Below are positions 20,202-40,506 of a stretch of DNA of 64,000 nucleotides, one piece after another (position 1 is the stretch's first letter; each line of letters starts with the position of its first letter). The position numbers and the translations under genes were made by a program. The stretch is from Naegleria gruberi. Taxonomy: Eukaryota. The notes beneath the pieces are model-generated. The model worked only from the letters and a program-made list of their open reading frames with translations. It was not told the DNA's origin and made no database searches. Location: NCBI GenBank assembly GCA_000004985.1, contig GG738849.1; one strand, 5' to 3'.

Positions 20202-20651
20202 TTATTGTTTAGAACATAAACGTGAAGCAAATTCACGATAATCAAAAGTTCCTTCACCATCAATATTTGCCTCCTTCATTAATTCTTCCCAATCTTCATC
20301 CGAAAGACCAGTTGCTTGTTGAATTTGATCTTTAAATTCCTTAGCTTCAATTCTAAAAACATTCTTTGTATCAAAAACTCTCATTGCTTCAATAATATCC
20401 TCTGATTTACTGTCATCTCTAATTAATTTATTGACAACTGACATGAATCCTTGCAATTCAATACCATCCTTTCCAGATAAATTTGATTTTTTGGCATCAG
20501 AAATTGATGATTTAATCATTGATTCCTTCAATCCCATACTTTTCAATAATCCTTCCATTTCCTTTTCGGAAACAAGACCATCACCATTTATATCTAGGAG
20601 AGAGAAGGCTTCTTTTAATTCTTTTTCATCTTGTTGTGAAATGAGGGCCAT
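20202..20651 (-). CDS. EF-hand calcium-binding protein (calmodulin-like, about 149 aa).
   Basis: Canonical EF loops DINGDGLVSEKE and NIDGEGTFDYREF, plus two degenerate loops. The true ATG (MALISQQDEK) is at 20649-20651. The longer track ORF begins at a TTG. Confidence 0.75.
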   Translation of the reverse strand: MALISQQDEKELKEAFSLLDINGDGLVSEKEMEGLLKSMGLKESMIKSSISDAKKSNLSGKDGIELQGFMSVVNKLIRDDSKSEDIIEAMRVFDTKNVFRIEAKEFKDQIQQATGLSDEDWEELMKEANIDGEGTFDYREFASRLCSKQ

Positions 20652-21008
20652 TTTGATGATCAAGTGATGTTGAGGTTATTGTTTTGTTGGTAACGGAAAG
20701 TTTTTTTTAAAATATTTTTTTTTTATGAATAATTTTTTAATATTTTGATGATCGAATGTCAGACTTTTTGGATGTCTCTTGTCAAATCATTAGCCAAACA
20801 CGGGCCATTTTGCTTCAGAATCACAATGTTGAATAAAACATTGAGATTTATCAATACATTGCTGTTGATACAAGTTATTGGAATAATTGAAAGTTTCTTC
20901 ATATTTACCTATTTACAAATTCAAAATAGACGAATGTCAAATCTAATATTCTTCTCTGATTACAATTTTTCAATCATGACAATAATATTTAAATATCCAA
21001 TTAAAAAA

Positions 21009-24000: not shown

Positions 24001-24347
24001 TAGATCACTATCCTTCAGCCAACCACATTTCCACTTTTATTTCCAACGATGAAGAATCACTCAATCTCTCTGCAAACAACCTATTCCAACACAATCTCAC
24101 TCAACTCACAACTGAACTCAACTTTAAGAAAGGTCTTGCCATCGTTGTAATGGCCCATTTGAATCAAACAGATCAATTACTCCAATTAGAACATGCCTTA
24201 ATGTTAGAATCGATACCATACGTTTCTATAGTCCTATTACATCCTCCAGAAAGTAGCGAATCATTGTCAACAGAGTACTCTGATCCAATCAGAGAACAAA
24301 CTCAAAATTCTGAACAAATTGCAATTGTTCAAGAAATTGGAAATTAA
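21009..24347 (+). CDS. tbck: TBC domain-containing protein kinase-like protein (TBCK: pseudokinase + Rab-GAP TBC + rhodanese). Two exons: 21009..21809, 21855..24347.
   Basis: The kinase-like domain (HFMHMFGIFHTMLCPELICIADN|GDIKV...YLAPELF...DIWSIGVILLEF) is split by a 45-nt intron GTAGGT...TTATAG. The TBC domain has the Arg finger IGVDVPRCHQY and the Gln finger YWQGLDSLCAPLL. The C-terminal rhodanese-like domain is ISFIVDIRPIEDYKLDHYPSANHIS. The first ATG with a poly-A context is at 21009. The upstream part of the track ORF is AT-rich promoter-like sequence. Confidence 0.85.
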
Positions 24348-24361
24348 ATTTACAAAAAAAA

Positions 24362-25555
24362 ATGAAACGATTTCAAGCTAGAAAGTTGGGCGCAATTTTT
24401 CCATTTTCTGCTTCTTCTTCTTCCAATAAATTGATAATGAAGAAGGAAATGATGAATAAATTAAATTCAAGTGAGAATTGTGTGATGGCTGCTGTTCCGA
24501 AATTAAATAATAATAGTAGTAATTATCATTATCATTATCATCAGCAGTTGCATTGGATGTTTTGGGAATTAAATAGTGTGCAGGGAAGTGTTAGGAATTA
24601 TGCAAAGAGTTTGAAGAAGAAATCAACAAGTAAAATAATAGTGAATAATCAAAAGTTGATGGAGAAGGAGAGAATAATTGAGGATTCAGTGAATGAGGAG
24701 GAAGAATCAGAGGAGGCCAATGTTGCACCATCAGTGATAATGGATGAAAAGACAATGGATGAAGAAGTGGAAAGGAATTCAAAATTGCAAACTCCACCTG
24801 GTTTGTATATTATTGCCACTCCGATTGGTAATTTGAATGATATTTCAGAGAGGGCTAAATTTGTGTTATCTCAATCGAATATGATTGCTTGTGAAGATAC
24901 GAGAACGACAAGGAAATTACTTCATTTTCATTCGTTGATTTCGGATCCTCCTCAGCAATTGATTAGTTTTGTGGAAAATAAGAATGCATCTGAGGTTTAT
25001 AGTCAATCTAAAAAGCATTTGAGCTTAATTTTGAATCGATTGACTAGCTCAAGTGATGTAGTATCGGTGGTTAGTGAATGTGGAAGTCCTTGTATTTCAG
25101 ATCCTGGTTGGATTCTAGTTAAGAATTGGTATGTGAAATATTTGAAAATTATATTAATTTTAAATAGTCATGAATTAGGAGTTCCTGTTTATTCAGTACC
25201 TGGTCCTAGCTCTATAATTGCAGCATTATCAATTAGTGGTTTCAATAGTAATAGATTTATTTTTGACGGCTTCTTACCAGCCATTCCAAAGAAGAGAAGG
25301 AAGTTGTTACAAGAACTTAGGGAAATACAAGGAAATCGTTGTGTTGTATTCTTTGAAAATCCAAACAGAATTAAGCAAACTTTAGCAGATTGTGTTGAAA
25401 TTTTTGGAGGTGATACACAAATTGCTCTTTGTTTTGAATTAACCAAACTCTTTGAGAGAATTCAAAAGGGAAAACTTTCAACAATTGAACGAGTAATGCG
25501 AAATGAAGATATTAAGGGTGAATGTACGATCATTATTGGCAACAATTCAGAATAG
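24362..25555 (+). CDS. RsmI-type tetrapyrrole-methylase-family rRNA 2'-O-methyltransferase, probably organellar. Two exons: 24362..25128, 25168..25555.
   Basis: LYIIATPIGNLNDISERAKFVLSQSNMIACEDTRTTRKLLHFH matches the RsmI N-terminal motif (LYLVATPIGNLEDIT...AEDTR). SDPGWILVKN|CHELGVPVYSVPGPSSIIAALSISGFNSNRFIFDGFLP matches the DPGY..VR.....GI.VVP.PGP...AL..SGLP.DRF block only after removing the 39-nt in-frame intron GTATGT...AAATAG. A basic, Ser-rich N-terminal extension of about 150 aa is presequence-like. Confidence 0.8.
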   Translation: MKRFQARKLGAIFPFSASSSSNKLIMKKEMMNKLNSSENCVMAAVPKLNNNSSNYHYHYHQQLHWMFWELNSVQGSVRNYAKSLKKKSTSKIIVNNQKLMEKERIIEDSVNEEEESEEANVAPSVIMDEKTMDEEVERNSKLQTPPGLYIIATPIGNLNDISERAKFVLSQSNMIACEDTRTTRKLLHFHSLISDPPQQLISFVENKNASEVYSQSKKHLSLILNRLTSSSDVVSVVSECGSPCISDPGWILVKNWYVKYLKIILILNSHELGVPVYSVPGPSSIIAALSISGFNSNRFIFDGFLPAIPKKRRKLLQELREIQGNRCVVFFENPNRIKQTLADCVEIFGGDTQIALCFELTKLFERIQKGKLSTIERVMRNEDIKGECTIIIGNNSE

Positions 25556-25610
25556 TAAACTCTTTATTTACAACAAAAGTCACAATATTTTGAGATTATT
25601 CCACACAAGC

Positions 25611-27694
25611 TCAAGAAATCCAAAGTTTGTACATGGCAGAAACAATATAGAATCCAATACATAAAATTGTTGGGGTTGGAATCAATGGCAAAGTGAATAG
25701 TCTATAATTTACACCCATCATTACTTCCAGACCTAACGAACAAATGAAGAGAAAGACTACATTAATCATCAAGGCAATACCAAGCTTTTTCATTTTAGGT
25801 CTTTTAGCAGGAGGAGTAAACATGGTACAGAATCGTTTCAGAATAAATCCAAACATTAAACATGTTGCAACGTGCATGATGGCAATTAAAACATGCATAC
25901 CAATAACAATATATGAAATTGTAGCTGCCAATCCATCCTCATCATCAGGTGAAGCATCTGCTTTTTGGCTGTAGTGAAGTAAAACAAAAGCTCCTCCAAT
26001 CAGTAAACAGAAAAATAAGTGAAGAGCCGTATTGATAATATTTCTAATAATTAATTGTCTTCTATTTCCTCCCAATGCTGCAGTTAATGTTATTGTTTGA
26101 GAAATCCAAGAGACAACCTATTGAAAAAATTAAGCTTGAATATTAAATAATATCAACTTACTGTAATTAGAATGAAAGCAATTAGGAAAGGTGACATTAT
26201 AAAGGAATAGTTATTTACAATTCTCTTAAAAGCATAGAATTTGATATTCTCAATGCCAGGAGTATCATCCATCAAATATTTGGCAGATAATGGGAATATA
26301 CAGGAAAGATTAACCATAAAGAAGAATCCAGTCAAGCCAAATATGAAAATTAATCCAATAAGGATGACCAATACTCCTTGAACAGTTTGTCTTGATTTGA
26401 GTTTAAATCTCAAATAGGCCTTTGTAAATTGTTGAAATAATACAATAATACCACAAAACAGTGGTGGATATAAAAATGCAAAAGGTAATATCCAGTATCC
26501 ATCGATTGCGTTAGGATCGTCCATTGATACGGAAAACATGTCGAAATTCATTTTGATTAGTTGTAATATGAGACAGAGAGTGGCAGAGGCTGTGGAAATT
26601 GGCACTCCCAAAAAGAATGTGAAATAATATTGAGTATTGTGACACATTTCATACATGTTTTCCAATTTTTCTCTTCCCTTGTTATGAGTTTCTAATTGTT
26701 TGGTTGCTGTTGAAACAAAATTGTTCAATTTTTGGAAGCAAAGCTTGTAGAATGAGCAAATATATGGTGCATGTAAAAGAGTGTAAAACTCTCTTTCATA
26801 TCTATTAATTTCACTTGTACCAATACTACTAACTGCCTTATCTCCCAAAATATTCCTCAAATTATAGTGATTTTGTTTGAATTTATCCTCCAACTCTTCC
26901 TCAATTTCTCCCTCGATTCTAATTTTAATTTCCTTTCTCTTTTCATCCTCAACCTCACCCTCAAATCTTGTACTATCATTATTATTAGGATTTGGATCAA
27001 AGAGTGGAATGTAAAATCTACTCTGAAGGGATTCTAATAAATTCTCCTTTTTATCAATCTCTGGTAAGTATTTCGAACCTTGGAATGAGGAAAAGATGAA
27101 TTTGGAATGTTTTGATGGAAACAATTGTTTAAGAAAGAATTTCTCCCACAAAATATTCTGTTGAGAGAGGAATAGCCACTCCTTTGAGACTTGAGAAATG
27201 GACATGATCAGAGATTCATAAGGCAAGAATGAAAATACAATAAGGAGAACATCTCTAGGTATTTGCTCCCATTGAGAAGGTACACTATATTCAGAAGTTC
27301 TATCAGGATTTACATTGAATCCATAAATTGAGTACAAGACATGATGATTGAAAACACCAATAGCTCTCGAAGAAGAAACTTGTGTTGCCTCATCATCATT
27401 TGTTTCCAATAATTCATCCATTTCATCACTTGATAATTGTTCATCAAAGGCATTACCACGAGGAGAAGTCATCATTCTCTTTCCCGATATCAATTCAATC
27501 AAACCGTTAAATACATTTCCCAAACTAAATTCTCCATTGTTATTAGCAATACTACGATTGTTGTTATGATTACTACTGTGGTGACGAGTGTTGCTTCTAT
27601 GTACAATTAGATTTGTCGTTCCGTCATCGTTTAATTGTTCCTCTTCTTCGGCATGGTGGTGCTGATCATCATTGCCCAAAGAACGTAAAGACAT
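25611..27694 (-). CDS. F-box protein with a C-terminal multipass transmembrane domain. Two exons: 26162..27694, 25611..26117.
   Basis: True ATG at 27692-27694. F-box IPRDVLLIVFSFLPYESLIMSISQVSKEWLFL. The C-terminal about 250 aa hold at least six hydrophobic helices. A 44-nt intron GTAAGT...TCAATAG (26118..26161) joins the two track ORFs in frame (…ILIT|VVSWISQ…). Confidence 0.65.
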
Positions 27695-27865
27695 TTTTTG
27701 ATTTTTAATAAATTGTAAGGTTTTCGTTTTGTTCTGTTATTGTGTTCCTTCTAAAATAGAGTTCTAATTCTTGTTTTTTATTGTTGTTCTAATAAGCAAT
27801 CTTAATTTTAATAGTTTAAATAACAAATATTTGTAACAAGTTAAAAAAACAGATATCTTTAGAAC

Positions 27866-28273
27866 ATGACTGATTCTCTTCCTCCAATTCCTTCCTTGAA
27901 TTTTGTTTATCATCTCGTATCGGAGAGTGCCTATTTGAAAGATGTACAAGAACACAACGGTCAATATTTCAATGGTGATAAGAGGGATGGCTTTCTTCAC
28001 ATGTCCATTGCTTCCGAAGTTGAAAAGAGTTGCAAATTGTATATGCACTCTGTAAAGGATTTGATAATATTAAAGATTGATATCAAGAGTTTGGAAGCTA
28101 GAGTTTCAAGTTCAACTGTTGTTGAGAAGATTGCCTACGATTGGGTTCCTGCAAGAAGTAATTATTTTCCTCATCTCTATGGATTATTACCAGTCGAGTG
28201 TATTGTAGATAGAATTTCCGTGCCAGTCGTTCAAGATGAACACTCTTTTGATGGTATTCACTTGGATAATTAA
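27866..28273 (+). CDS. DUF952-family small protein (135 aa).
   Basis: YHLVSESAY...DGFLHMSIASEV...LIILKIDIKSLEARV...NYFPHLYGLLPVECIV matches the DUF952 consensus (YHI..W...EGFIHCS...L.LL.ID...L...V..E....FPHIYGPL). Single exon, ATG start. Confidence 0.7.
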   Translation: MTDSLPPIPSLNFVYHLVSESAYLKDVQEHNGQYFNGDKRDGFLHMSIASEVEKSCKLYMHSVKDLIILKIDIKSLEARVSSSTVVEKIAYDWVPARSNYFPHLYGLLPVECIVDRISVPVVQDEHSFDGIHLDN

Positions 28274-28578
28274 ACTCTTCTATTGTTCAAAAAGCTTTTG
28301 AAAAATTCTTTCGTCAGGAGTATTTAATTCTACCATCAAAATATTGTCGGCAAAATTTCATATTAATAATATTCCATCTTTAAATCTTCATCTTTTAGTT
28401 AATATTTTCTACATATTCTTATTGTTGTTGTGTGTTTTGTTTTATTGGAGAGTGAATTCTATCATCTTTATTCAACTTAGAAAGGCGCCTTTTATGTGCT
28501 TTGTAACAGTGGTGGTTGACTCTGCCCATATTTGCCTATTTTTGGGGCCATACAATTTTGTTTTAATTAAATAAAAAA

Positions 28579-28941
28579 ATGTTGAACAGATTCGCTAAGA
28601 AGACTGCCCAAAGCGTTATTCAAACTTCTTCTAACACTTCTAGATCCCTCCACACAAATCCAGTCTATGACTACAAGGGTGCTTGGAAGACATACAAGGG
28701 TGCTAAGATGCAAGCTTTCGCTTTAGGTCTTGTTGCTTGTGTTCTTGGTCCTCTCTGGGTCTGGAAGGCTGAACACGACGATATTAGAACCGTCTACGTT
28801 TTCGATGGTAAACCAGTTTTCGCCAAGTTGAGACCAAAGTTGTACGCTTGGAAGAGTGATTGTCTCGATTGTGGTCTCTTCGATAAGGACTGTGCTGCTA
28901 TGTGTAAGCAAATTCAAGATGCCAAGAAGAAGGGTCTCTAA
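28579..28941 (+). CDS. Small mitochondrial-type single-pass membrane protein (120 aa). The family is not assigned.
   Basis: Presequence-like N-terminus MLNRFAKKTAQSVIQTSSNTSRSLHT. One TM helix MQAFALGLVACVLGPLWVW. A C-terminal Cys cluster CLDCGLFDKDCAAMC. Coding-like composition in AT-rich flanks. Confidence 0.5.
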   Translation: MLNRFAKKTAQSVIQTSSNTSRSLHTNPVYDYKGAWKTYKGAKMQAFALGLVACVLGPLWVWKAEHDDIRTVYVFDGKPVFAKLRPKLYAWKSDCLDCGLFDKDCAAMCKQIQDAKKKGL

Positions 28942-29054
28942 ATTAAAATATTATCATCATCATCCGAATGAAATAACATTTTTTAAAATTGTAACTTTAA
29001 ATTAGGGATTTTTAAATTAAAGGCGCCACTATTAGGTTTTTTGAAAAGACAATT

Positions 29055-31637
29055 TTATTGTAAATTTAAAACCATTCTCTTCTTATCTGCCTTCTTTCTT
29101 CTATCGTGATTAGCACTTTTGGCCTTGTTTTCTCCTTTTTGTTTGAAGTTATTGTTGTTTCCGCCACGTTGTTGTTCATTTGGTGAGGAAGTAGTATCAC
29201 TGTTGTTATCTTGACTAGTTGTAGCACTGTTGGTAACAACCTTGTTAGTGGCAGTAGCAGTTGGTTGTTTGCTTACTTGCTTCGAGGCATCATTTGAACC
29301 TTGGTTGGATGTATCTGCAGATTGTTGTTTGGATTGTTGATGAGTGCTCACTTGATGATAGCCTCCACCTCTCTTTCCTCTATTAGCTGTTGATCCTCCT
29401 CTGTTGTTATTGTTGTTTTGATTTCTTTGAGGTTTGGAATTGGATTCGATACCAGCAGCGTTAGCATTATTTGAGGAGGATTGAGAAGTATTTGGAGTTG
29501 AGGCAGATTGATTATTGTTGTTTGATTGTTGTTGGTGATGTTTGTTTCTATTTGGATTACCTTGTTGCTTATTGCCTTGTTGCTGCTTATTCTCTTGTTG
29601 TTGCTGTTGTTGTTGAGGAGGCTTATTCTCTATTGTTTGTGGCTTTTCTTCACCATGGTGGTGTTGATGATTTGGATTACTATTGTAAGCCTTTGGAACC
29701 TTAATCTTGTTAAAGTTTTCGTCTTCATGTTCACCTTCAGTTGTGACAGCCATCACACTATCATATGAATCATCATATTCATCATCGTAGGCATATTCGA
29801 GGAGAATACGTTGCTTGATAGTTTCGTCTGTTTCATTAAAGTTGGTTCTATTGTCCTTCTTTTTACCAATTCTGACCGATGCGAAAAAGTCAGTATCCAT
29901 CCAGACAGTTGGTGAAACAATTGGTGAGGCAGGTTCGTAAGAGGATGATGATGATCCACTTGTTGAGCCAGTATTGAGAAGAGATGAAGGTGGCTTACTT
30001 CCAGTATTTGTTGGAGCCTTATAGGATTTGAGTGACAATTTGTTGTCCATCTTCTTCAAGTGCAATGGCAATTGATTATCCATGAGGGCATTTGTAGTGT
30101 TGGTAATATCATTATTGAAATGATCGAGACATGCTTGTAAGAATCCATTTCCATAATCTGGGAAGAATGATTTGAGTTGTTTGAGCATTTCTGTTAGAGC
30201 TGGTTCATCTTCACTGTTGGTTGATCCCTCTGTTTGAGCATTTTCAGATAATTTAGTGAAAATAGTTGTTGAAATATTATAGACAGAAGAGACACTACTC
30301 AGTAAAGCATTTCCCAAAATAACTTGTTCTAACCACTTTCCTAAACCATATAACTTGTCATATTGATAGATTACATAGTTGAATTTAGTTTGATCCTTAG
30401 CTTGGAATTTGAAAAATCCTTGTAAAATGTCCAATAATTCCAAAACAATTCCTGTTGCTTGTCTTGTAAGTTGCTTGTCAAGAGTAAATTTACACAAGAG
30501 TTCGAGTTTAGATTTTGGAATTTGTTCCTTCTTGAATGATGATTCAAAATATCTAGTGTACAATGTTTCCATATGACTTGTTGTTGATCTATTTGAATGA
30601 GTTTCTCCAGTAATTAAATCTTCAATATTTCTCATATAGTATTCTCTAAACAAAACATGAAGAATAGAAACAATATTAAGTTTGACTTGTCTGCATACAA
30701 ATCTATAATCAGGGTCATCACCAATAATACTCAAAAGTTGGGGTATAATCTTATCGTGACATTCCATCAAAAGATTAGGGAATTGATAATTGACAGGAGT
30801 TTTGGTTTCTCTAGTGTCAACCATGAAAGCATAGGACGCCAGTGGGAAAACATCAAGGAGGGATCTTATGGTAAATGTAGAATCGTATAAATAGTAAATT
30901 AACTTTCTAATTTGATGACAATCAGATTTTGAGTTTGAAGTCACCTTGTTTGAGGCATCAAACAAATCTCTCCACGTAACACAAATACTATTCAAAACAT
31001 GTTCATTGAGTTCGTGCATATAATTTGGTGAAGAGAGGAAAATTCTGGAAAGTAACTCGGTGGTAAGCATTGAATTAGGATATCCATAAAGTGAAGAGAG
31101 ATCAAATATTTTACCAACATCTAGTAAATGCTTTTCACAAATGACAAACCCAGCATCTAACCATTCTTCACGATTTACATTATTCAAGTCTGTTGGATGT
31201 GAAATGTCAATATTTCCCTTTCCATGTAAATTAAAGTTCATAAATAATCTATAGTAAATCATGAAGAGACGTCTATATATTTTGATTTCCTCACGTTGTT
31301 CATTCCTTGGACAATTTTCATTGATTTGATTAAATCCAATATCAAAAGGTCTCGGAAACAATCTAAATACACTTTCTAAGCTTCTCTTGAGAGAGGTATC
31401 ATTCAACATGAGCACCCAAAAATCATGATCATTACAAGTTAACAATTTATGATAATCTCTATTCAAAATTTTTAAACATTCAATTCTAGTTATTCTCTTA
31501 TCAGATGCCAACAATGGATTTAAACGATCCATGAACGGAATCATTTCCAATCCTTGTCCCTTTCCTAAAGAATAATAATTCTCTAGCCTAGTATGTAATT
31601 GAGTAAAGGATTGAACATCAATGGGAGTATTGTTCAT
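29055..31637 (-). CDS. ascc2: Activating signal cointegrator 1 complex subunit 2 (ASCC2)-like protein with a CUE domain and a poly-Q/N C-terminal region.
   Basis: CUE domain LTEMLKQLKSFFPDYGNGFLQACLDHFNNDITNTTNALMDNQLP. The acidic Tyr/Asp motif YAYDDEYDDSYDSV and the C-terminal basic tail ANHDRRKKADKKRMV both match human ASCC2 landmarks in the same order. True ATG at 31635-31637 (MNNTPID); the track start is a TTG. The poly-Q tract is at about 29575-29640. Confidence 0.8.
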   Translation of the reverse strand: MNNTPIDVQSFTQLHTRLENYYSLGKGQGLEMIPFMDRLNPLLASDKRITRIECLKILNRDYHKLLTCNDHDFWVLMLNDTSLKRSLESVFRLFPRPFDIGFNQINENCPRNEQREEIKIYRRLFMIYYRLFMNFNLHGKGNIDISHPTDLNNVNREEWLDAGFVICEKHLLDVGKIFDLSSLYGYPNSMLTTELLSRIFLSSPNYMHELNEHVLNSICVTWRDLFDASNKVTSNSKSDCHQIRKLIYYLYDSTFTIRSLLDVFPLASYAFMVDTRETKTPVNYQFPNLLMECHDKIIPQLLSIIGDDPDYRFVCRQVKLNIVSILHVLFREYYMRNIEDLITGETHSNRSTTSHMETLYTRYFESSFKKEQIPKSKLELLCKFTLDKQLTRQATGIVLELLDILQGFFKFQAKDQTKFNYVIYQYDKLYGLGKWLEQVILGNALLSSVSSVYNISTTIFTKLSENAQTEGSTNSEDEPALTEMLKQLKSFFPDYGNGFLQACLDHFNNDITNTTNALMDNQLPLHLKKMDNKLSLKSYKAPTNTGSKPPSSLLNTGSTSGSSSSSYEPASPIVSPTVWMDTDFFASVRIGKKKDNRTNFNETDETIKQRILLEYAYDDEYDDSYDSVMAVTTEGEHEDENFNKIKVPKAYNSNPNHQHHHGEEKPQTIENKPPQQQQQQQENKQQQGNKQQGNPNRNKHHQQQSNNNNQSASTPNTSQSSSNNANAAGIESNSKPQRNQNNNNNRGGSTANRGKRGGGYHQVSTHQQSKQQSADTSNQGSNDASKQVSKQPTATATNKVVTNSATTSQDNNSDTTSSPNEQQRGGNNNNFKQKGENKAKSANHDRRKKADKKRMVLNLQ

Positions 31638-32403
31638 TTTGTGTGTGATGATGAATTTTTTCAAATTTTTTGTTTTATTTTTAAAAATATTAAATAATCA
31701 AATTGCTGATGGTGATGAGCAAAAACTTCAAGGCAACAATTTCGGGAATGAACTCAAGTACGATATTGAACAGAATAATTGTTTCCTTGATGGTGTGAAG
31801 AAAAAGATAATGTTTAATTTGAGACTAATTTTGAAATGTTTAGCAACCTACAATATAATCCTAAATTCTATTTAATAATCTGTAGTGAGAGAACAATTGT
31901 AAAGATTGAGTTTCCATGGAAACAAATTTCAAGAACAATCATCAGCTGATGAATGAGATTGGAATTTCTCCTCATATACGGAAACAAAAAGGAAAACTTT
32001 TACCATCATGTATGGTCATTTCCCAATACTTATTATTATCCAAGTTACCCACCAACGAACAACACCTACGACACTATCTTGTTACAAAATAGAAACCACT
32101 TCCTCTCCAACACGACTATTTTCAATTCCTTAATATCCTTTTCATCAACATTCTCTGTGAGGAAAGTCCACGCATATGGAACACCTCTCTTATTGGAAAG
32201 TATTCAAAATGAAATTGAGTTAAATTTCATGAAGTATGAAGGTAACCCGATCGTGATTGTTTAGATAGTGCTTCCTCCTCTAGTACCCTATCAAGTCACA
32301 AATCAACATACAAATGTTGTAGTCTGTGGGATTCTCTTTTCAAAAAAAAGTAACAATCATTATCGTTGTCTAGTTGACTTGAATTGTTATTAGTTGATAC
32401 AAA

Positions 32404-34632
32404 ATGTTTAGAAAGGGATTTCTGTTACTGCTAATTCTTTCACTGTTGGTGATAGCTGGTTTTTACACACAGTCAACTGTGGCGACTCTAGTTAACTCAA
32501 ATACTTATCCAAGTGCAAATGTAATTTCTACGAGTGATGGGTTTAAAATGTATTGGAGATTATTGGCAGGAAATGGCACCAATTCCATTATTGAAATTGC
32601 AATCATTGCTACTGGATGTGCCAGTGGATGGGTTGGTTTAGGAATAGATCACGACGTTTCGAGTGGTATGTCAAATGTTGATACAGTGATGGCAAGGTTT
32701 GTACGAAATATTTCACATTATTTATAATTTGATGATGAAACTTTTATTATCCGTATGATGATGATGTTTAGATATACTGGATCAATTGATATCAAAGATA
32801 TGTACTTGGCTACAAATTCACGATCAGCTCCTATTCAAGATACTATTGACAATTTGATTTTCAAAGATGGTGGAGTGAGTGGAAGTGATCTTCATGTGAT
32901 TTTCAGAAGATACTTGAATACTGGAGATAGTTCAAGAGACAAAATTATTAGAAACGAAACTATGAGGTTCAGTTATGCCTACTCTTTATCTTCCAATGAT
33001 TTCCAATCATATCACGATAAGACTGGAAAGTTCACGACCAATTTGCTCTTGATTGCTACAAATTCATCAAGTGGAGGCACCACAACAGGCACTACAAATA
33101 ATCTCTATAATTTCCATCTGATTGTTACGGGAATCATGTTTGTGATTGTACTTTCATTGGGCATTGTCTTTACATTTATTCCAGTTTTGGTTAAACCAAA
33201 TCTACTGACAGATTTGATTTTATATAGAAGATTTTGCAAAGTTTCGACAAACAAATACTTGGGAGGAATGATTAATTCATTGGCTGACTTGACCATTGGA
33301 GAAGTTTTAATCGTGTCATCATATTGGCTCATTCTAGCTGCTTGGGCAGTTTATGGAGGTATTTCGGCAAGCTCATTCCCAGCTGGAAGAGCTTTTGCTT
33401 ATGTGAATGTTTGGAATTTTAGTTTGATACTATTCCCTTTGAGTAGATATTCAGTTTTACTTGCCCTGTTCGGTATTTCATTTGAGAGAGCTATCAAATT
33501 CCACAAATGGTTGGGAAGATCAACTCACTTCTTTGTTACTGTTCACTTCCTTGCCATGTTGATTGAAAATGCAATGATCAATAATGCTGCCTATTTGTGG
33601 TCAATGTCAACAATTAATTATCCTCTCTTGGGTTTTATTTCTTGGATTTTATTGAGTATTCTAGTGATGGGAACTTTTGAGCCAATTAGAAGAAAGTTGT
33701 GGGAACTTTTCTATGGTTCACATATTATTCTTGCTGTTCTAGTGATTGGATTATCCATTGCACACGGTAGAGGATGGATTACATTACTCCCTTATATGGC
33801 TGCAAGTATTCTCTTGTATTTGATTGATTTGCTATTCAGATGGGTATTTGGCTTTGGAATTCCAACAAAGGTTGTTGGTATTAGTTATAATGAGGATTGT
33901 AGTGTAACAACCGTTACTTTCCAGAAGAGATTTTTGACCTTCCTTAATATTGGAGGAAAACCTGGAAAGGGTTCATTTATTTTTGTTTATTTGCCTTCAG
34001 TTTCTCCTTTCGAATATCATCCATTTACTGTGAGTAGTTACAAGGAATTGGATAAGAAGGGAACCTATGAATTTACATGCCATGTCAAGAATCATCATGG
34101 TAAGGGTTATGGAAACAAGTTGGCCAATCTTGCCAAATCCAATCCAGATGTTAGTCGTCTATTTGCCAGAGTTGAGGGAGCATTTGGAAATCTCTCCATT
34201 CCTATTCAACATTATCAAACCGTCATCTTAATTAGTGGTGGTATTGGTATTACATTTGTTCATTCACTCCTCGATGGTCTAGTTCAGAGAGGAGAAGACA
34301 AGTCAAAGAAGATTCACTTGTGGTGGTCATTCAGACATCCCTCAATGTTGGATTTATTCCCAACGATTAAGAATAATTCATCTATCGAAAAGGAACTTTT
34401 CCTCACTGGAAAGGACACTGAGATGGGTTCTCATTCTCACAGTGACATTAAAATGTCAAGAATGGACGTTAAACAATTACTGGAAAAGGTGAAGAGTAAT
34501 ACCAATGATTCCTATGTTGGAGTATTCGTCTGTGGACCAACTCAATTAATTTCCACTGTACAAAATGCAATTTTCGATGTGAATGGTGGAGGTACTAGAT
34601 TCCATCTCCACAAGGAAGTATTTGAATTTTAA
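32404..34632 (+). CDS. Signal peptide + DOMON domain + ferric-reductase (FRE/NOX-type) transmembrane domain + FAD/NADPH-binding domain. Two exons: 32404..32696, 32772..34632. The junction is approximate.
   Basis: Signal peptide FLLLLILSLLVIAGFYT. A DOMON-like beta-sandwich is split by the intron (…SNVDTVMA|R|YTGSIDIKDMYLATNSRSAP…). Two His pairs with 13-residue spacing sit in TM helices (HIILAVLVIGLSIAH and HKWLGRSTHFFVTVH), i.e. a bis-heme site. The FAD motif is HPFTVSS and the NADPH motif is GGIGITFVHSLL. The donor is GTTTGT at 32697, the acceptor TTTAG at 32770-32771. Confidence 0.8.
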
Positions 34633-34735
34633 TAAATTCATGAAATATTCTACTAAAACTCCCTCAATCAGAAATATATTAACAAACAGCCATTCAGAGC
34701 TATAGCTCTCTTCAATATTTTCCAACCTTAAAAAA

Positions 34736-35675
34736 ATGAAACTCTATGATCTACCAACGGAATTGTTGCAAGAAATTTTCAGTTTTCTCTTTAATTTGAG
34801 GGAGAGCAAGAAGACTCTCTATAATTCGCTTATTGAGGCAAGACAGTCGCTTCAACAAATTTGTCAAATGCAACAAGTTTGTACTACTTTTCGATCATCG
34901 GAGGAAATTATTGAATTATTTAATGATTTAATGTGGAGTTTATTCTGCAAGAGTTTTCCCTCTGCACTGATCGAAAATCTAGTCGAATTGTGTGGTGATG
35001 AATTTGAGGAGGAAATTCTAGAGCCAATTCGGAAGAAACATTTGATGAGGAAATACATTACTGGATTGATGAGAAAAATTGGAAAATTATCTTCATCAAG
35101 CGATAATTTAAAAGTATTATTTCTTGGTAAATATTAAATTATATAATATTTCAATTTTTATTAAAAATTTGGAAATTTATTTAGGAAATGGAAAGACAAC
35201 TTTATTGAAAAAGCTATCAGGTGGCAGATTTAAATCAATTGTAGGGTCCATTAAGAAAAAGATTAATCAAATTGGAAACGTTTCATTTGTATGCATGGAA
35301 CCAACTAATGAGACAACTTGTTTCCGTCTCATTTCCACCATGGAAAATAGATTTGATTGTTTTGTGATTGTAAATTATCCAGTGGATAATCGTGTGGGTA
35401 GTAATATAGTGCTACAATATCCTATGGATTTTAAAGATATTTCTGTATCAGTTGACTTTCCAATAGTTATTGTAATGAAGAATTGTTTTGTTTTGGGAGT
35501 GAGAAGTTTATTTTCTGATTTCAAGAATGTATCAATTATTGTAACTGAAGATGATGAAAGTGAGTTTTCAACAGGTAAAATTTTAGAGGAGGTTTATTTC
35601 AGAACATTCAAAACTAAACAGAATTTGCTGGATATTCTAATAGAGGAGGCAAAAAGTTTACAAAAATATGATTGA
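34736..35675 (+). CDS. F-box protein fused to a P-loop NTPase-like domain. Two exons: 34736..35126, 35185..35675.
   Basis: N-terminal F-box LPTELLQEIFSFLFNL. A 58-nt intron GTAAAT...TATTTAG follows. The Walker-A-like motif VLFLGNGKTTLLKKLSGG spans the junction. A hydrophobic-D segment DCFVIVNY is Walker-B-like. Other G-motifs are not recognisable. Confidence 0.55.
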
Positions 35676-35683
35676 AATTATTG

Positions 35684-35800
35684 CAAATTTCTCATCAATT
35701 TTCCAACAAAAATTCAACTCTCATTAAGAAAGCAGTTTATTGTGGGCCAATAATTGAGATAGGATTTGTGTAAAGTTGGGTCTATTGGATGGCTCTTGGT
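35684..35800 (-). repeat. Copy A of a 117-bp duplicated segment. It carries the last 24 codons and 3' flank of the receptor-kinase gene.
   Basis: About 96% identical (5 mismatches in 117) to 40390..40506. On the minus strand it encodes QEPSNRPNFTQILSQLLAHNKLLS*, versus WDQEPSNRPNFTQILSQLLTINELLS* in the intact gene. Homology stops abruptly inside the coding sequence; in this copy the frame is closed by stops immediately upstream. Confidence 0.8.
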
Positions 35801-35997
35801 ATCATGATTACTTTCAACCAACAAGCTGCACAAGGCCCAGCAACATTCTAAAAAGGCTAGAGCAATTCAGTTTATTTAATATTCCAAAATTATTCGCTAA
35901 AAAATGAGTTTTAAACAAGCTTCTATTATTTAACTCAATTTTTCTAAAGTCTCCCATAATAACATTTCATACACAAATCAAAAGTATATAATAGAAT

Positions 35998-38900
35998 TTA
36001 GTAATTTCTATTTGCAATCATTTGTTTGAGAATTTCCTTCTTGCTCAAATTGGTCGTTGGCTTTAACCAAGACATGTTATCATAATTTTTCTTCAAAAAG
36101 CTTGACAAGACACTTCTACTTGGGAATAAATCTTTCAAATACATAATGGAAGCAATTTCGTATGGAGTAAGACCAAAGGCATTAATTGCATTAACATCAG
36201 CTCCATACTTTGTGACCAAAAGTTTGGCAAGTCCAATATTTGATGGATCCAAACAGGCAAGATGTAATGGAGTCATTAAACGGAGTGTTGGAATATTGAT
36301 AAGCTTTGGTTGTTTGTCGAGAACTGCTGTTATGATTTCTGTAGGTATACCAGTACGTTGGCTGGCCAAAATTGTGAGGCAAGTATATCCATTATCATCT
36401 CTGTACAAGAGATCTTCAGGTGACATATTTTCAATCAAGGTAAGGACGAATGGAACTGATCTCACCATGCTTGCCATCAATAAATTCAAAATGCTTGTCT
36501 CAATAATTCTTGGAGATTCAAATAACATAGCCTTTTGATCAAGTTCAAATGCTGGAACAGTTTGATTTAAATCAGAGATTTGACCATTGTAAATCATTTG
36601 AACGAGAGTAGCTTGTCTATTAAATTTGACTTCATCAGTAGAATCCAAAAAGTTGCAATAAGTTTTGGAGAAATCTTCTGAATATGGATCAGGGGTAGAT
36701 TTGGCGGATTGCATGTAAGTGATTCCTCCAAATACTTCTCTGAACTTTCCTAAACAAGTACACAAAGTTACAAGATTATCGATCAGTCTGATATCATCAT
36801 AGCTTGAAGTTAACATGGCAATAAGCTTGTCGGTAGTGATTTGAACCTTTTGCTTTTCATAATCAGGATGTGACTTTGGTTTAGTAAAGTATCTAAAGAA
36901 GACTTGCAAGGCTCTAACTTTTTGATCTGTAGAAAGCTCTTCTGTGCAGTTTGAGTCAGCTTCCACTTTCTTCAAGGTTTCTTCCAAATTATCAAGGCCT
37001 TGGAAATCTGAAATTTGAGACAGACTCTGTGCTAATAGTTCAATTGATCCATTTTCATAGAATAATTTGGCCATATAAAGATCTAAAAGGATGGTCTTGT
37101 CAAGATAGTATCCATTGATCTTACTACATTTACCAACCATGACTGAGAACATGAACTCTTCAAAGACGTGAGGATTCTTGAAGATATTCATACCAAAGTA
37201 TAACAAGACGTGACACCAGTGGAAGCTACCATCATAAATGATAGAATCTGGGTGGAGAAGGCTTTCTTCAGACTTGTTGTTATGATAGATGAGATATTCT
37301 TCAATAACTCTCTTTTCTTCTATGTGTTCGTAGTTGTAGGTATCTATAGCAGAATAAGGAATTTTGGATTTGATGCAATAATCAATAATTTCCTTCTTCT
37401 TAATGATGGATAATCCAGGGGATTGGGTCAATAATTGATTGATCAATGGTAGGAATTCTAATCTTTGTTCAGTCATTGCAGTTATTGGTCCTATCAAGTC
37501 CTTGTCAAGTTGGGCAACAAGAATGGCTCTGATAACCAATCTCTTTTCGTCTTCTCTATCGAGCATTGGACGAACAGTTAGAGCACCAGTAATATCGGCA
37601 GGGGTTTCTTGATTATCATCGTCATTATTTGTAAAGCCATCTTTTAAAGTATCTACTACCTTTTGAGGTTTACCTTCAAATAAGAAATAGAACTTGTCAT
37701 AAAACTTCTTCAAAACATCCTTGGCTGACTCAATATCAGCTGTTGTACTGGTATAAACGTTGGTCATCTGGGTATTGGAATCTGAATTTTCTCTTGTTTT
37801 TCCCAAAAAACTGATTTCCTTCATATTTGGGAAGAGTGTAGCAAGATATCCAATTTCAGTACCAAGAGAATATACATAATCACCATATGGGGCTAACTTG
37901 ACCTTTTTAACATTGTTAGCAAAGCAGGATCTGAGGAGATTCTTACTAACACTATCAAATTCTTGCAACTCTTCGAAATCGAAATATGATTTAATGGCCA
38001 AAGGATCCTTTGAAAGCCCATCAAGTTTTCCAGCATTAGGATAGAAGGATCTATCATTTGAGAAAACAAATGAAAGATTATCGAGTACAAAGTTAACAAA
38101 GGTAATCTCCTCAATATGACTACCACATACAGTACCTTTAACCAAGCTAGGATCAACAATCTTTGGAATTGTCTTACCATTCTCCAACAAGATATGTAAC
38201 AATATATTGTTCAAGAAGTTATAACTTTGGAAATTGATTAAGCTGATGGACTTGAATAACTTGTAAGTTTCCTCATGCCATTCACTGAACAGATCAGGAA
38301 GGGCTTTCCTAAGGGACAAACGAACCAAAGCGCAAAGATAAGTTTCGTATGTGTAAACAGGAGAGTATGCTAGAGTGTGAGGAGTCAAAATAAACTCGTG
38401 ATTCATTCTTGGAATACCCTCTGGGAAGTATTTTTTGTAAAGTTCAGATGGTTCCATATTGTCAAAGTTATCATTCAACAAATCCAACCCAATTTCTGTA
38501 GTGTCAACTGTTAATGGTAGTTTAGATTATGATAGCGACTTAAAATACTTACGTTCTAGAACTATATCGGCTCCTTTTGGACGTTTTTTGATCTTGTCCT
38601 TCTTGCTTGATTGGGTGACCAGACGTGAAAAGTTGGAAATCATATAATTATTATTCATAGTTTGTTGATTGAGTTCATCAACTAAATCTGCTTCAGTAGT
38701 TTCTTCATCTTGTGCTTCTTCATCTTGACTTTCTTTTTTGTCAACTTGAAGGAAAGTATCCTCTTCTACATCAACTTCAAGCGTTTCTTCTTTTTCTAAC
38801 TTTTCGTCAGTTTTAGCTTCCTTCTTGGTTTCTTCATCAACTTCAATATCTAAATCATCCACGTTATTGTTATAATAATTGAGTCTATAGGATGGAATAG

Positions 38901-40048
38901 AACCTCCAATGGTAAAAGTTCCAGTTTCGGTATCTGTTTTCAAAAGGAACATTTCACTCCAATTGGATTTCAAGCATCCATAAACCTTTGGGCAATTTTT
39001 GTAGATGCCTTCATCTTCAAAGTGATCCAACTTTTTGGAGTGGTACCTCTTTTTAGCATTGATAAAACAGAGCAAGTGAGCATATTTTGACAAGAAGAGG
39101 TCAATATTATTTTCTGGTTCAAATGCATTAGTTCTTGGTGAATAGAAACGAATGAAAATGGAAGCAATATTCAAAGAATCGCATTCATTCATTAAATATT
39201 CTTGCATTCTTGTGTTAAATGTCTTTGAAATTGCACGATACTTGTGATATGTTACAAATACTGAATCAATGGTTTCAGTACAAAAGTTATTTGGAGTATT
39301 GGAAAAATACTTTTTAAACTGGAATATGGTACTAGATTCTCTTTCGAATGGAAGTTTGCTAGATGTTGGAATCATGGTAATAATATGGAATTTCAACTCG
39401 AAATCAAAATGTTCTCTAATAAGTTCACATAATTCTTCCAATTTCTCAGATGACTCATCAGCGCTTTTTTCAACAATAGTTTTTTCTATTAATTCAATTA
39501 TTAATCATTGTAGTTCATAAAGAGATAACAAACCTTCACTCTTCTTTCTATCTGCATCAGTCCAGATCTTACTCAAAGGTGTCATTTTCTCACCTTCAGC
39601 AGCTTCAAAATCAACAGAGGATGAATAAACCTTCGGATCAAGATTCTACAACCATCATCAGTTGTGTGATATTAAATTTGATCAAAATTATTACAAAATC
39701 ACAAGGAAAAACAAACCTCAACTTTTGGAAATTTAGCCATTCCATTATTCCAATAGGCTTGGGCATAATTAGTATATTTTGATTTATCCTTGTGATATTG
39801 TGGAATTGTTTCTATATTATGATCATTTAATAATATTCATATATTAACAACATAATAACATGATCGGATGGAATGATAGGAATCACACATTAATATGTTC
39901 ATATATAATAATCTTCATTAGCAATCTAACAACACATTCAAAAAAACAAACCTTTGATCGGGGTTAAAATAGCCTCTCCCACACGATCATGAATCATCTC
40001 CAACAAATTACTAGCACTGGTAATATCCAACCCGAAAGGACCGTTCAT
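35998..40048 (-). CDS. Large ankyrin-repeat-containing protein (about 1230 aa). Five exons: 39952..40048, 39717..39811, 39534..39645, 38553..39485, 35998..38507.
   Basis: The two long track ORFs (38527..39441 and 35998..38487, both listed from TTG) join in frame through a 45-nt intron GTAAGT...TAACAG. Three further 5' exons join with exact phase through introns that have GTTTGT donors and TAG acceptors. The apparent upstream stop TAG at 39646-39648 is the acceptor of intron B. ATG at 40046-40048 (MNGPFGLDITSASNLLEM...). The C-terminal ankyrin repeats are GYTCLTILASQ... and LMTPLHLACLDPSNIGLAKLLVTKYGADVNAINAFGLTPYEIA. Confidence 0.7.
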
Positions 40049-40389
40049 TCTTCTCCCTCTTGATGATTTGGATTTTTTTATGTTTTGATTTTGTGAAGGA
40101 AATTGGCACCATGTTCGATCAATGTTCCATAAAACGCATTACAATGGGATGTTGTGACGTAATTATCATGATTATCTTGGTGTTTATTGGGAGTTTCATT
40201 TTCTTTTGAATTTTCTCTTGAGATAATCAAAATATTGTGCTCAACACTCAAAAAAAAGACATCTTTCATTATAAGAATTTCATCCTAAGGCTTATTGCCA
40301 TTGGATCAATGACATTAGTTATGAAGGATCCAAATATACAAGTGAATAAAGCAATTAACATCATTAGGGTATTGTATTGTAAATAAAAT

Positions 40390-40506
40390 CAAATTTCTCA
40401 TCAATTTTCCAACAAAAATTCAACTCTCATTAAGACAGCAGTTCATTGATGGTCAATAATTGAGATAGGATTTGTGTAAAGTTGGGTCTATTGGATGGCT
40501 CTTGGT
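40390..40506 (-). repeat. Copy B of the 117-bp duplicated segment, in its native context at the 3' end of the receptor-kinase gene.
   Basis: See copy A. This copy covers the final 24 codons (WDQEPSNRPNFTQILSQLLTINELLS*) plus about 40 bp of 3' flank. Confidence 0.8.

What the first reader, a model, noticed from the sequence alone, without database searches (positions are those of the whole stretch)
35684..35800. 117-bp duplicated segment with the last 24 codons and 3' flank of the receptor kinase, copied into another gene's 3' spacer
35684..35800 and 40390..40506 are about 96% identical. In its native context (copy B) this is the C-terminal coding end (…WDQEPSNRPNFTQILSQLLTINELLS*) plus 3' flank of the TKL receptor-kinase gene. 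Copy A lies 9 bp after the stop of the unrelated F-box/P-loop gene, in the 320-bp spacer shared with the 3' end of the ankyrin gene. Its residual reading frame is closed by stops immediately upstream. It could be a relic of a deleted kinase paralog (a 3'-terminal pseudogene fragment). It could be a segmental micro-duplication. Or the 40-50 bp non-coding part (caaatttctcatcaattttccaacaaaaattcaactctcattaag) could be a reused 3'-end processing module.
Basis: seen in the sequence. Interest (0 to 1): 0.55.

Follow-up and report, generated by a model that had tools for sequence, protein, structure and literature searches.

The report
Duplicated kinase gene tail flanking neighbour
A 130-bp piece holding the last codons and 40 bases of 3' flank of a receptor-kinase gene has been copied 4.7 kb away, so that the two copies bracket the neighbouring ankyrin gene. 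The orphan copy looks like a non-coding by-product of a local DNA rearrangement, which is an ordinary kind of event.

Summary
The duplication is real. 35684-35800 and 40390-40506 match at 112/117. In-register homology runs on to 35813/40519 (130 bp, 93%, blastn E 6.6e-50). It is the only dispersed repeat in the 44.3 kb of real sequence.

Copy B is the true end of a PMP-repeat/TM/TKL kinase gene: the last 28 codons, the stop, and 40 nt of flank. Copy A is closed by TAA and TGA and shows no kinase homology beyond the unit.

The "ankyrin" gene runs from 40048 to 35998, and the two copies are direct repeats that bracket exactly this gene (A-X-A, X = 4576 bp). In Naegleria fowleri and N. lovaniensis the orthologous kinase and ankyrin genes lie about 17 kb apart with 7-8 genes between them.

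Mismatches are clustered, not uniform (p about 0.002). There is no poly(A) tract, no target-site duplication around copy A, no Rfam hit, no structure signal and no other copy in the window. The shared non-coding 40 nt has no AATAAA.

Best reading: a single DNA-level repair or template-switch event left a dead kinase-tail fragment. Most likely a 130-bp patch was copied into the next tolerated spacer. The main rival is insertion of the ankyrin cassette with a 130-bp target duplication. Interest is low. The whole-genome copy number, sister species and transcripts could not be checked.

The parts
35684..35813 (-). Copy A, the orphan kinase-tail fragment. It has a pseudo-coding part (35813-35727), a stop-equivalent TAA (35726-35724) and a 40-nt copy of the kinase 3' flank (35723-35684).
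   Evidence: The frame is closed by TAA 35810-35808 and TGA 35804-35802.
40390..40519 (-). Copy B, the native end of the receptor-kinase gene: the last 28 codons, the stop TAA 40432-40430, and 40 nt of 3' flank.
40430..43484 (-). Receptor kinase gene (Chlam_PMP-like repeat ectodomain, TM, TKL kinase). Exons are 43484-41164 (open at its 5' side towards the N gap), 41110-41066 and 41015-40430. The introns are 53 and 50 nt, GTATGT/GTAAGT..TAG.
   Evidence: The ortholog in N. fowleri has the same architecture.
35998..40048 (-). Multi-exon 'ankyrin' gene (ATG 40048-40046, stop 36000-35998). It is the ortholog of N. lovaniensis C9374_003529 and N. gruberi NAEGRDRAFT_80685. Ankyrin repeats occur only near the C-terminus.
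35814..40389 (.). Segment X, the 4576 bp enclosed by the two direct copies. It holds 184 bp of ankyrin 3' flank, the ankyrin gene, and 341 bp of its 5' flank.
   Evidence: Derived.
34736..35675 (+). Orphan F-box-like/degenerate P-loop gene. Exons are 34736-35126 and 35185-35675, with a 58-nt GTAAAT..TAG intron and stop TGA 35673-35675. Its 3' flank runs straight into copy A in antisense.
   Evidence: No homologs were found. Only one marginal hit appeared in 1.8 billion representatives.
35676..35997 (.). 322-bp convergent spacer between the F-box/P-loop stop and the ankyrin stop. Copy A fills 130 bp of it.
35871..35876 (-). First AATAAA after the ankyrin stop (121 nt downstream), followed by a T-rich stretch. 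It is a candidate ankyrin poly(A) signal lying upstream of copy A.
   Evidence: PMC11529991 gives signal usage in N. gruberi. The assignment is an inference.
35736..35741 (-). AATAAA inside copy A, created by the difference at 35738. Copy B has AATGAA at this position.
35730..35747 (-). Cluster of 5 mismatches within 18 nt, in the codons after the kinase domain (LTINELLS in B, LAHNKLLS in A). It is flanked by perfect runs of 53 and 46 nt.
   Evidence: p = 0.0016.

Best explanation
Copy A is a dead, non-coding fragment of the kinase gene's 3' end. It was made at the DNA level by one local repair or replication template-switch event.

Proposed mechanism: a break or stalled fork 8 nt past the F-box/P-loop stop codon was healed by copying about 130 bp from the nearest-but-one non-coding boundary on the same chromosome. 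That boundary is the kinase tail, 4.7 kb away in the same orientation. Synthesis then returned to the original template.

In this compact genome the ankyrin/F-box spacer is one of the few nearby places where such a patch is tolerated. That is why the copies end up bracketing exactly one gene.

The patch has no function of its own. Two side effects are possible:
- The F-box mRNA may carry a 3' UTR antisense to the kinase mRNA tail.
- The ankyrin gene now sits between 130-bp direct repeats.

Shown: the duplication, its sharp limits, the closed frame, and the absence of retrocopy marks. Inferred: the repair mechanism, the direction (B is the parent, A the copy), and the lack of function.
For: - The repeat is 130 bp at 93%, with a core of 112/117, and is unique in the window.
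- Homology ends abruptly on both sides. Flanks beyond the unit are no more alike than random window pairs (p 0.3-0.9). There is no kinase similarity elsewhere in 34600-38600 by tblastn, tblastx or blastn-short.
- Copy B is the parent. It is the in-frame end of a complete kinase domain and keeps the conserved W-D..P..RP.F motif seen in orthologs. Copy A carries TAA and TGA.
- The copies are in direct orientation with the template only 4.7 kb away.
- The junction on the X side shares a 4-nt TCAA/TTGA motif with a 2-nt slip.
- Mismatches sit in two clusters, one of them at the junction. Error-prone synthesis after a template switch would produce this (established knowledge on replicative rearrangements; inference here).
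- The genome is compact, with stop-to-stop spacers of 55-180 bp, so few insertion sites are tolerated.
Against: - The A-X-A layout with direct orientation is exactly what a target duplication around an inserted segment looks like (rival 1). Nothing in the window separates the two readings.
- Templated insertions as catalogued in human and yeast data are mostly shorter, use templates within about 100 bp and are often inverted (PMC8421209, PMC11724301).
- The mid-unit cluster of 5 mismatches in 18 nt, between perfect runs of 53 and 46 nt, is not explained by simple neutral decay.
- Only 44 kb of the genome could be searched, so a third, closer parent copy elsewhere cannot be excluded.
Confidence: 0.45

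Rival explanations
1. Target duplication from insertion of the ankyrin gene cassette. In this reading the kinase and the F-box/P-loop gene were originally tightly convergent, with about 48 bp between their stops. The 4576-bp segment X (the ankyrin gene with 341 bp of 5' flank and 184 bp of 3' flank) was then inserted. The insertion happened either by a template switch that returned 130 bp behind its point of departure, or by fill-in of a 130-nt staggered break. The result is A-X-A. Both flanking genes keep their native 3' ends, which would explain why the event was tolerated.
For: - The direct repeats abut exactly one complete gene with its flanks.
- Direct orientation is obligatory under this model.
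- In Naegleria the orthologous kinase and ankyrin genes are not adjacent. L003 (N. fowleri) and L001 (N. lovaniensis) overlap collinearly at 77-81% nt identity. This places the ankyrin gene about 17 kb downstream of the kinase, in the same orientation, with 7-8 other genes between them. Its neighbours there are L-PSP and FANCI, and L-PSP is also the neighbour on an unrelated metagenome contig.
- A 55-bp convergent spacer elsewhere in the window shows that a 48-bp spacer is plausible.
Against: - X has no mobile-element features. Pfam finds only ankyrin repeats, and there are no terminal inverted repeats at its ends.
- No second (donor) ankyrin copy, and no L-PSP or FANCI gene, lies within the 35 kb available downstream.
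- A 130-bp target duplication around a 4.6-kb host-gene insertion is a rarer event than a 130-bp patch.
- The split from Naegleria is ancient (34-47% aa identity) while the repeat is young, so non-adjacency in Naegleria is weak evidence.
- The F-box/P-loop gene shows no similarity to the kinase's convergent neighbour in N. fowleri.
Confidence: 0.25
2. Relic of a deleted kinase paralog. A whole second kinase gene once lay between the ankyrin and F-box genes. A later deletion removed all but its last 130 bp.
For: - The fragment is the very 3' end of the gene plus flank, as expected for a terminal remnant.
- Identity is somewhat lower at the inner edge (4 mismatches in 14 nt).
Against: - No residual similarity to any other part of the kinase in the 184 bp between copy A and the ankyrin stop, or anywhere in 34600-38600.
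- It needs two recent events: a duplication of at least 3 kb and a deletion. It also needs the duplication boundary to fall only 40 nt past the stop.
- No tail duplication is seen at the orthologous loci in Naegleria.
Confidence: 0.1
3. Assembly artefact. The scaffold mis-joins or mis-places sequence, for example allelic or paralogous reads, so the second copy is not where it appears to be.
For: - The window is a short-read-style scaffold with a 50-N gap.
- The source genome is absent from all searchable collections, so nothing could be cross-checked.
Against: - The copies differ at 9 positions, so they are distinct sequences rather than a collapsed repeat.
- Both junction regions are continuous and free of N.
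- The enclosed 4.6 kb is one coherent, conserved gene collinear with its orthologs.
Confidence: 0.08
4. A functional element kept by selection. One form is a shared 3'-end/poly(A) module. The other is an antisense trigger: the F-box/P-loop mRNA 3' UTR, which begins 8 nt before copy A, would pair with the kinase mRNA tail.
For: - The 46 nt next to the F-box stop and a further 53 nt are identical between the copies, while mismatches are clustered.
- The predicted intermolecular duplex is -196 kcal/mol, against -36.7 +/- 5.3 for shuffles.
- No AATAAA or ATTAAA occurs on the + strand for more than 400 nt after the F-box stop, so read-through into copy A is plausible.
- One difference creates AATAAA in copy A.
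Against: - There are only two copies and neither can be compared across species.
- The shared non-coding 40 nt has no canonical signal.
- The unit is not present at any other gene end in the window.
- There is no structure signal (z from -0.22 to +1.42) and no Rfam family.
- A strong duplex follows trivially from any inverted-sense duplication.
- The F-box/P-loop gene is an unsupported orphan.
Confidence: 0.05
5. A 5'-truncated retrocopy. The 3' end of the kinase mRNA was reverse-transcribed and inserted.
For: - The unit ends exactly 40 nt after the stop codon. The median 3' UTR in N. gruberi is 39 nt (PMC11529991).
- The unit is strictly 3'-terminal.
Against: - No A-tract follows the unit in copy A. 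The next bases are CAATAATTT and then the F-box stop.
- No target-site duplication flanks copy A.
- The kinase poly(A) site is unknown, and no AATAAA lies within 240 nt of its stop.
Confidence: 0.03

Closest known systems
Unprocessed (duplicated) pseudogene fragments and dispersed micro-segmental duplications
   Same: It is a truncated copy of part of a functional gene, including contiguous non-coding flank. The frame is disabled, there is no poly(A) tail, and it lies near the parent on the same chromosome.
   Different: It is very short (130 bp). It sits in a 3'/3' convergent spacer 8 nt from another gene's stop. Its mismatches are clustered rather than spread evenly.
Templated insertions and insertional duplications from replicative template switching (FoSTeS/MMBIR; MMB-TI as defined in PMC8421209; yeast DSB insertions in PMC11724301)
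   Same: A patch copied from a nearby template, short microhomology at a junction (TCAA with a 2-nt slip), and point changes concentrated next to a junction.
   Different: Catalogued MMB-TIs are mostly shorter, inverted, and templated from within about 100 bp. Here the copy is direct, 130 bp long, and 4.7 kb from its template.
Target-site duplication flanking an inserted segment
   Same: Direct repeats immediately abut a 4.6-kb segment that is a complete gene unit. The flanking genes keep intact ends.
   Different: The enclosed segment is a conserved host gene without transposase, LTR or TIR features. A 130-bp duplication is far longer than transposon target-site duplications.
5'-truncated processed pseudogenes
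   Same: The unit contains only the extreme 3' end of the transcript-coding sequence. It ends at about the typical 3' UTR length of the nearest studied relative (39 nt in N. gruberi, PMC11529991).
   Different: There is no poly(A) tract and no flanking target duplication. Intron loss cannot be tested.
Leishmania low-copy direct repeats that flank genes and mediate extrachromosomal amplification (PMC4028189)
   Same: Direct repeats bracket a gene in a member of the Discoba. Such repeats are substrates for loop-out recombination.
   Different: Only a single pair is seen here, not a genome-wide family, and it is short. There is no evidence of amplicons, and it is derived from a coding gene end.
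Pseudogene-derived antisense RNAs and endo-siRNAs (mouse oocytes, Trypanosoma brucei; recalled from my own knowledge, not checked here)
   Same: A gene fragment placed in antisense within another transcript could pair with the parent mRNA.
   Different: Nothing is known here about transcription or small RNAs. This is a possibility only.

Membership tests
Unprocessed pseudogene fragment / micro-segmental duplication | Significant nucleotide identity to a functional parent gene elsewhere in the genome | tested here: met
   130 bp at 93.1%, E 6.6e-50. The parent is a complete kinase CDS.
Unprocessed pseudogene fragment / micro-segmental duplication | Truncated and/or disabled reading frame | tested here: met
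   Only 28 codon-equivalents are present. TAA and TGA fall at codons 2 and 4. No usable splice acceptor or donor was seen in the sequence.
Unprocessed pseudogene fragment / micro-segmental duplication | Copy includes genomic (non-mRNA) sequence such as introns or flank beyond the poly(A) site | tested here: inconclusive
   The copy holds 40 nt past the stop. The kinase poly(A) site is unknown, and the duplicated part contains no intron.
Processed (retro) pseudogene, 5'-truncated | A-rich tract directly after the copied 3' end | tested here: not met
   Copy A is followed by CAATAATTT and then the F-box stop codon.
Processed (retro) pseudogene, 5'-truncated | Short target-site duplication flanking the insert | tested here: not met
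   The flanks GAAATTATTG and TCAACCAACA share nothing, and flank similarity is at chance level.
Target duplication around an inserted segment | Two direct copies immediately abutting the inserted DNA | tested here: met
   35684-35813 and 40390-40519 are direct repeats enclosing 35814-40389.
Target duplication around an inserted segment | Empty site (single copy, no insert) in a related genome | not testable with these tools
   The only relatives available are Naegleria species at 34-47% aa identity. There the kinase and ankyrin genes are about 17 kb apart, but the F-box gene has no ortholog.
Target duplication around an inserted segment | Insert has mobile-element hallmarks (transposase/RT, TIR or LTR) | tested here: not met
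   X encodes only the conserved ankyrin-repeat host gene. There are no inverted repeats at its ends.
LTR retrotransposon | Direct terminal repeats with TG..CA ends enclosing gag/pol | tested here: not met
   The unit starts CAAAT and ends in ..ACTT. The interior is a host gene.
MMB-TI templated insertion (PMC8421209 definition) | Inverted copy of a template within about 100 bp, flanked by microhomology | tested here: not met
   The copy is direct and its template is 4706 bp away. Only a 4-nt imperfect microhomology is present at one junction.
Shared 3'-end processing (poly(A)) module | AAUAAA-type hexamer 15-20 nt upstream of the cleavage site (N. gruberi, PMC11529991) | tested here: not met
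   There is no AATAAA or ATTAAA in the shared 40-nt non-coding part. Copy B has none within 240 nt of the stop.
Shared 3'-end processing (poly(A)) module | Recurs at the 3' ends of other genes | tested here: not met
   No other match to the unit exists in 44.3 kb carrying about 20 genes. A genome-wide count is not testable here.
Structured non-coding RNA | Match to a known family, or folding better than shuffles | tested here: not met
   Rfam gives no relevant hit at E <= 1. Fold z-scores range from -0.22 to +1.42 on both strands of both copies.

The most novel reading that the evidence does not exclude
The orphan copy may not be inert. It begins 8 nt after the stop of the lineage-specific F-box/P-loop gene, and no canonical poly(A) hexamer follows on that strand. 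That mRNA would therefore carry about 120 nt that are almost perfectly antisense to the receptor-kinase mRNA's last 90 coding nt plus its 3' UTR. It could act as a trans natural-antisense or RNAi trigger linking the two genes. A second possibility is that the 130-bp direct repeats let the ankyrin gene loop out or amplify, as direct repeats do in Leishmania.
Probability: 0.05. Interest if true: 0.55.

Novelty: new member of a known kind. Interest (0 to 1): 0.22.

Why it matters
The finding is a clean, datable footprint of a small rearrangement in a very compact heterolobosean genome. It marks a point where gene order differs from Naegleria: kinase and ankyrin genes are adjacent here but about 17 kb apart there. 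With a sister genome it would show directly whether the event was a patch insertion or a gene relocation. It does not point to a new kind of element or function. For annotation, copy A should be marked as a pseudogene fragment and not merged into either neighbouring gene. The ankyrin gene model should be extended to 40048.

Tried and rejected
- Extended homology. Gapped and ungapped alignment, blastn-short, tblastx and tblastn of the spacer and of 34600-38600 against the kinase found nothing beyond 130 bp.
- Copy A as a coding terminal exon. All six frames were read. The kinase frame is closed, no plausible acceptor lies after the TGA, and no donor lies before the ankyrin stop.
- Known RNA family or structured RNA: none.
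- Other copies. The window self-comparison shows no other copy. Exact 30-34-mers from both halves gave 0 hits in metagenome contigs and viral contigs.
- The source organism is not in the protein database. Best hits are Naegleria at 34-47% identity.
- An alternative local template for the two diverged zones: none in the window.
- A second kinase of this family in the window: none.
- Orthology between the F-box/P-loop gene and the convergent RGS-like neighbour of the N. fowleri kinase. This would have favoured the insertion model, but there is no similarity. The F-box/P-loop protein has no homologs and one marginal hit in the exhaustive search.
- A tail duplication at the Naegleria loci: none.
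- Poly(A) hexamer survey at window gene ends. It was too heterogeneous to define this organism's signal.
- Look-ups of the N. gruberi proteins P0001 and P0123 for genomic context failed because they are not on record.

Full report
**Observation**

The window holds real sequence only in 1..44332. There is a 50-N gap at 43488-43537, and everything from 44333 on is N. Within it, 35684-35800 and 40390-40506 match at 112 of 117 positions without gaps. The repeat finder and a blastn self-comparison extend the match in register to 35684-35813 vs 40390-40519: 130 bp, 93.1%, E 6.6e-50. This is the only dispersed repeat in the 44.3 kb. The duplication is real and far beyond chance.

**Gene anatomy**

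The locus is eukaryotic, with 33% GC and 50-58-nt introns of the form GTAAGT/GTATGT/GTTTGT..TAG.

- **Kinase gene.** On the minus strand its exons are 43484-41164, 41110-41066 and 41015-40430. They splice to a protein with a repeat-rich ectodomain, one TM segment and a TKL-type kinase domain. The domain matches Pfam PK_Tyr_Ser-Thr to its last profile position.
- **Relatives.** The best relatives are Naegleria gruberi, N. fowleri and N. lovaniensis kinases at 44-47% identity. The source is therefore a heterolobosean that is absent from the databases.
- **Copy B.** It is the last 28 codons (KQTWDQEPSNRPNFTQILSQLLTINELLS), the stop at 40432-40430, and 40 nt of flank.
- **Copy A.** In the same frame it reads K*S*YQEPSNRPNFTQILSQLLAHNKLLS*.
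- **F-box/P-loop gene.** On the plus strand it runs 34736-35126 and 35185-35675. Its F-box match is just below Pfam's cutoff. It has no homologs and one marginal hit in an exhaustive search. It stops 8 nt before copy A.
- **Ankyrin gene.** The N. lovaniensis ortholog C9374_003529 (1355 aa) aligns from residue 1 at 40048 to its end at 36007. Short introns account for the ORF breaks.

**Main new point**

The two copies are direct repeats that bracket exactly one gene. The layout is A (35684-35813), X (35814-40389, 4576 bp) and B (40390-40519). X consists of 184 bp of ankyrin 3' flank, the ankyrin gene, and 341 bp of its 5' flank.

**Comparison with relatives**

- In N. fowleri (L003) the orthologous receptor kinase is annotated as two adjacent models, Chlam_PMP 629 aa and kinase 530 aa. 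It is followed by a convergent RGS-like gene, then rhomboid, WD40, p450 and an ~880-aa gene.
- In N. lovaniensis (L001) the p450 and an ~840-aa gene are followed by a 198-aa gene, a DDE_3 transposase, RabGAP and L-PSP. Then come the ankyrin ortholog and FANCI.
- The two loci overlap collinearly at 77-81% nucleotide identity. In Naegleria the kinase and ankyrin genes are therefore co-oriented but about 17 kb apart, with 7-8 genes between them.
- In the window they are 381 bp apart, and none of the intervening Naegleria genes is present.
- A metagenomic relative (L002) also has L-PSP next to the ankyrin ortholog.
- No tail duplication exists at the Naegleria loci.
- These species are so distant (34-47% aa identity) that this shows only that gene order differs. 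It does not date the change.

**Fine structure of the repeat**

- Homology ends sharply. Flanks beyond the 130 bp are no more similar than random pairs of window segments (p 0.3-0.9). The 14 nt at the inner edge are still significantly alike (p 0.017).
- No other part of the kinase is detectable in the spacer or in 34600-38600 at DNA or protein level.
- The nine differences are not spread evenly. Four lie in the 14 nt at the inner edge, and two of these create the stops. Five lie within 18 nt in the codons after the kinase domain.
- Runs of 53 and 46 nt are perfect. The probability of the 18-nt span is 0.0016, and of two such runs 6.5e-5.
- No alternative template for the diverged zones exists in the window.
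- One difference turns AATGAA into AATAAA in copy A.

**Tests of the readings**

- **3'-end module.** N. gruberi uses AAUAAA 15-20 nt before the cleavage site and has a median 3' UTR of 39 nt (PMC11529991). The shared 40-nt flank has no AATAAA or ATTAAA, and the kinase has none within 240 nt. The unit recurs at no other gene end here. There is no Rfam hit and no folding signal. This reading is not supported.
- **Retrocopy.** The unit ends 40 nt after the stop, close to the N. gruberi median UTR. However, no A-tract follows it and no target duplication flanks copy A. This reading is rejected as unlikely.
- **Relic of a deleted paralog.** It is possible, but it needs two recent events and leaves no trace beyond 130 bp.
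- **Coding exon.** The frame is closed and no usable splice sites are present.
- **Artefact.** The copies differ at nine sites, and X is a coherent conserved gene. Without reads this cannot be excluded.

**Mechanism**

The simplest account is one DNA-level event that produced A-X-A. Two versions remain.

- **Version II (preferred, about 0.45).** A break or stalled fork just past the F-box stop was repaired by copying 130 bp from the kinase tail 4.7 kb away. In a genome with stop-to-stop spacers of 55-180 bp, the ankyrin/F-box spacer is one of very few nearby tolerated sites. Bracketing one gene is therefore not a striking coincidence.
- **Version I (about 0.25).** The ankyrin cassette was inserted into a tight kinase/F-box convergent spacer, with a 130-bp duplication of the target. 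That preserved both genes' native 3' ends. It fits the obligatory direct orientation and the non-adjacency in Naegleria. Against it, X has no mobile-element features, and no donor copy or Naegleria-like neighbours occur in the 35 kb available.

Both versions are compatible with two features:
- the 4-nt TCAA/TTGA microhomology with a 2-nt slip at the A|X junction;
- the mismatch cluster next to that junction, as expected from error-prone synthesis after a template switch. This last point is an inference from established work on replicative rearrangements.

The mid-unit mismatch cluster remains unexplained.

**Consequences (inferred, not shown)**

- If F-box transcripts extend more than about 30 nt past their stop, they carry sequence antisense to the kinase mRNA tail. 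No canonical hexamer follows on that strand for over 400 nt.
- The predicted duplex is -196 kcal/mol, against -36.7 +/- 5.3 for shuffles. This is trivially true of any such duplication.
- The ankyrin gene now lies between 130-bp direct repeats. Such a pair is a possible substrate for loop-out, as described for Leishmania repeats (PMC4028189).

**Comparison with known kinds, and verdict**

The feature behaves like an unprocessed pseudogene fragment or templated patch. It fails the defining tests for several other kinds:
- retrocopies;
- LTR or transposon insertions;
- MMB-TIs in the strict sense of PMC8421209 (inverted, template within 100 bp);
- poly(A) modules;
- structured RNAs.

It is a new instance of a known, ordinary kind of event. 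Interest is low. The only added value is the A-X-A geometry, which a sister genome could turn into a clear example of either patch repair or gene relocation.

Noticed in passing
window 43488-43537 and 44333-64000: The window is padded. Only 44,332 bases are real. A 50-N scaffold gap sits at the 5' part of the kinase gene, whose ORF is still open at 43484.
   Followed up: yes
window 35998-40048 (-): The 'ankyrin' gene is a multi-exon gene of about 1,250 aa, orthologous to N. lovaniensis C9374_003529. The two ORFs 38527-39441 and 35998-38487 are in the same frame and are separated by a ~46-nt GTAAGT..CAG intron that contains a stop.
   Followed up: yes
window 40078-40269 (-): A 63-aa ATG ORF lies between the kinase stop and the ankyrin ATG and ends 30 nt before that ATG. 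It could be an upstream ORF, a leader or a small gene. It contains the first AATAAA downstream of the kinase stop (40188).
   Followed up: no
window 24362-25555 (+) / 25611-26075 (-): Convergent ORFs lie only 55 bp apart between their stops. The minus gene's AATAAA overlaps the plus gene's stop region, so their 3' ends must overlap. This is a sign of how compact the genome is.
   Followed up: partly
window 20745-24347 (+): Adjacent ORFs encode the C-terminal part of a protein-kinase domain followed by a RabGAP-TBC domain. This is probably one gene with an unusual kinase-TBC architecture.
   Followed up: partly
window 18836-19966 (-): An F-box plus LRR_6 gene has internally repeated DNA (self-hits 19024-19649 at 68-74%). 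These are tandem LRR units.
   Followed up: partly
window 4714-4759 and 5410-5457: Two short palindromic (self-inverted) stretches of 46-48 nt at 78-83% appeared in the self-comparison.
   Followed up: no
window 43538-44332 (-): The C-terminal part of a proteasome alpha-type subunit (…AKTYFEKHYDTF…DEMVD*) lies upstream of the kinase gene at the contig end.
   Followed up: no
L003 8067-11800 (N. fowleri VFQX01000067.1): The public annotation splits the orthologous receptor kinase into two gene models 45 bp apart: 629 aa with faint Chlam_PMP and 530 aa kinase. By comparison with the window's single spliced gene, these are likely one gene.
   Followed up: partly
L001 5039-6109 (N. lovaniensis PYSW02000018.1): A DDE_3 transposase gene sits inside the kinase-to-ankyrin interval in N. 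lovaniensis. This hints at mobile-element activity in that region.
   Followed up: no
window 35127-35184: Splicing the F-box/P-loop gene gives ...KVLFLG|NGKTTLL.... This is a shortened, non-canonical Walker-A-like motif. The protein has no detectable homologs.
   Followed up: partly
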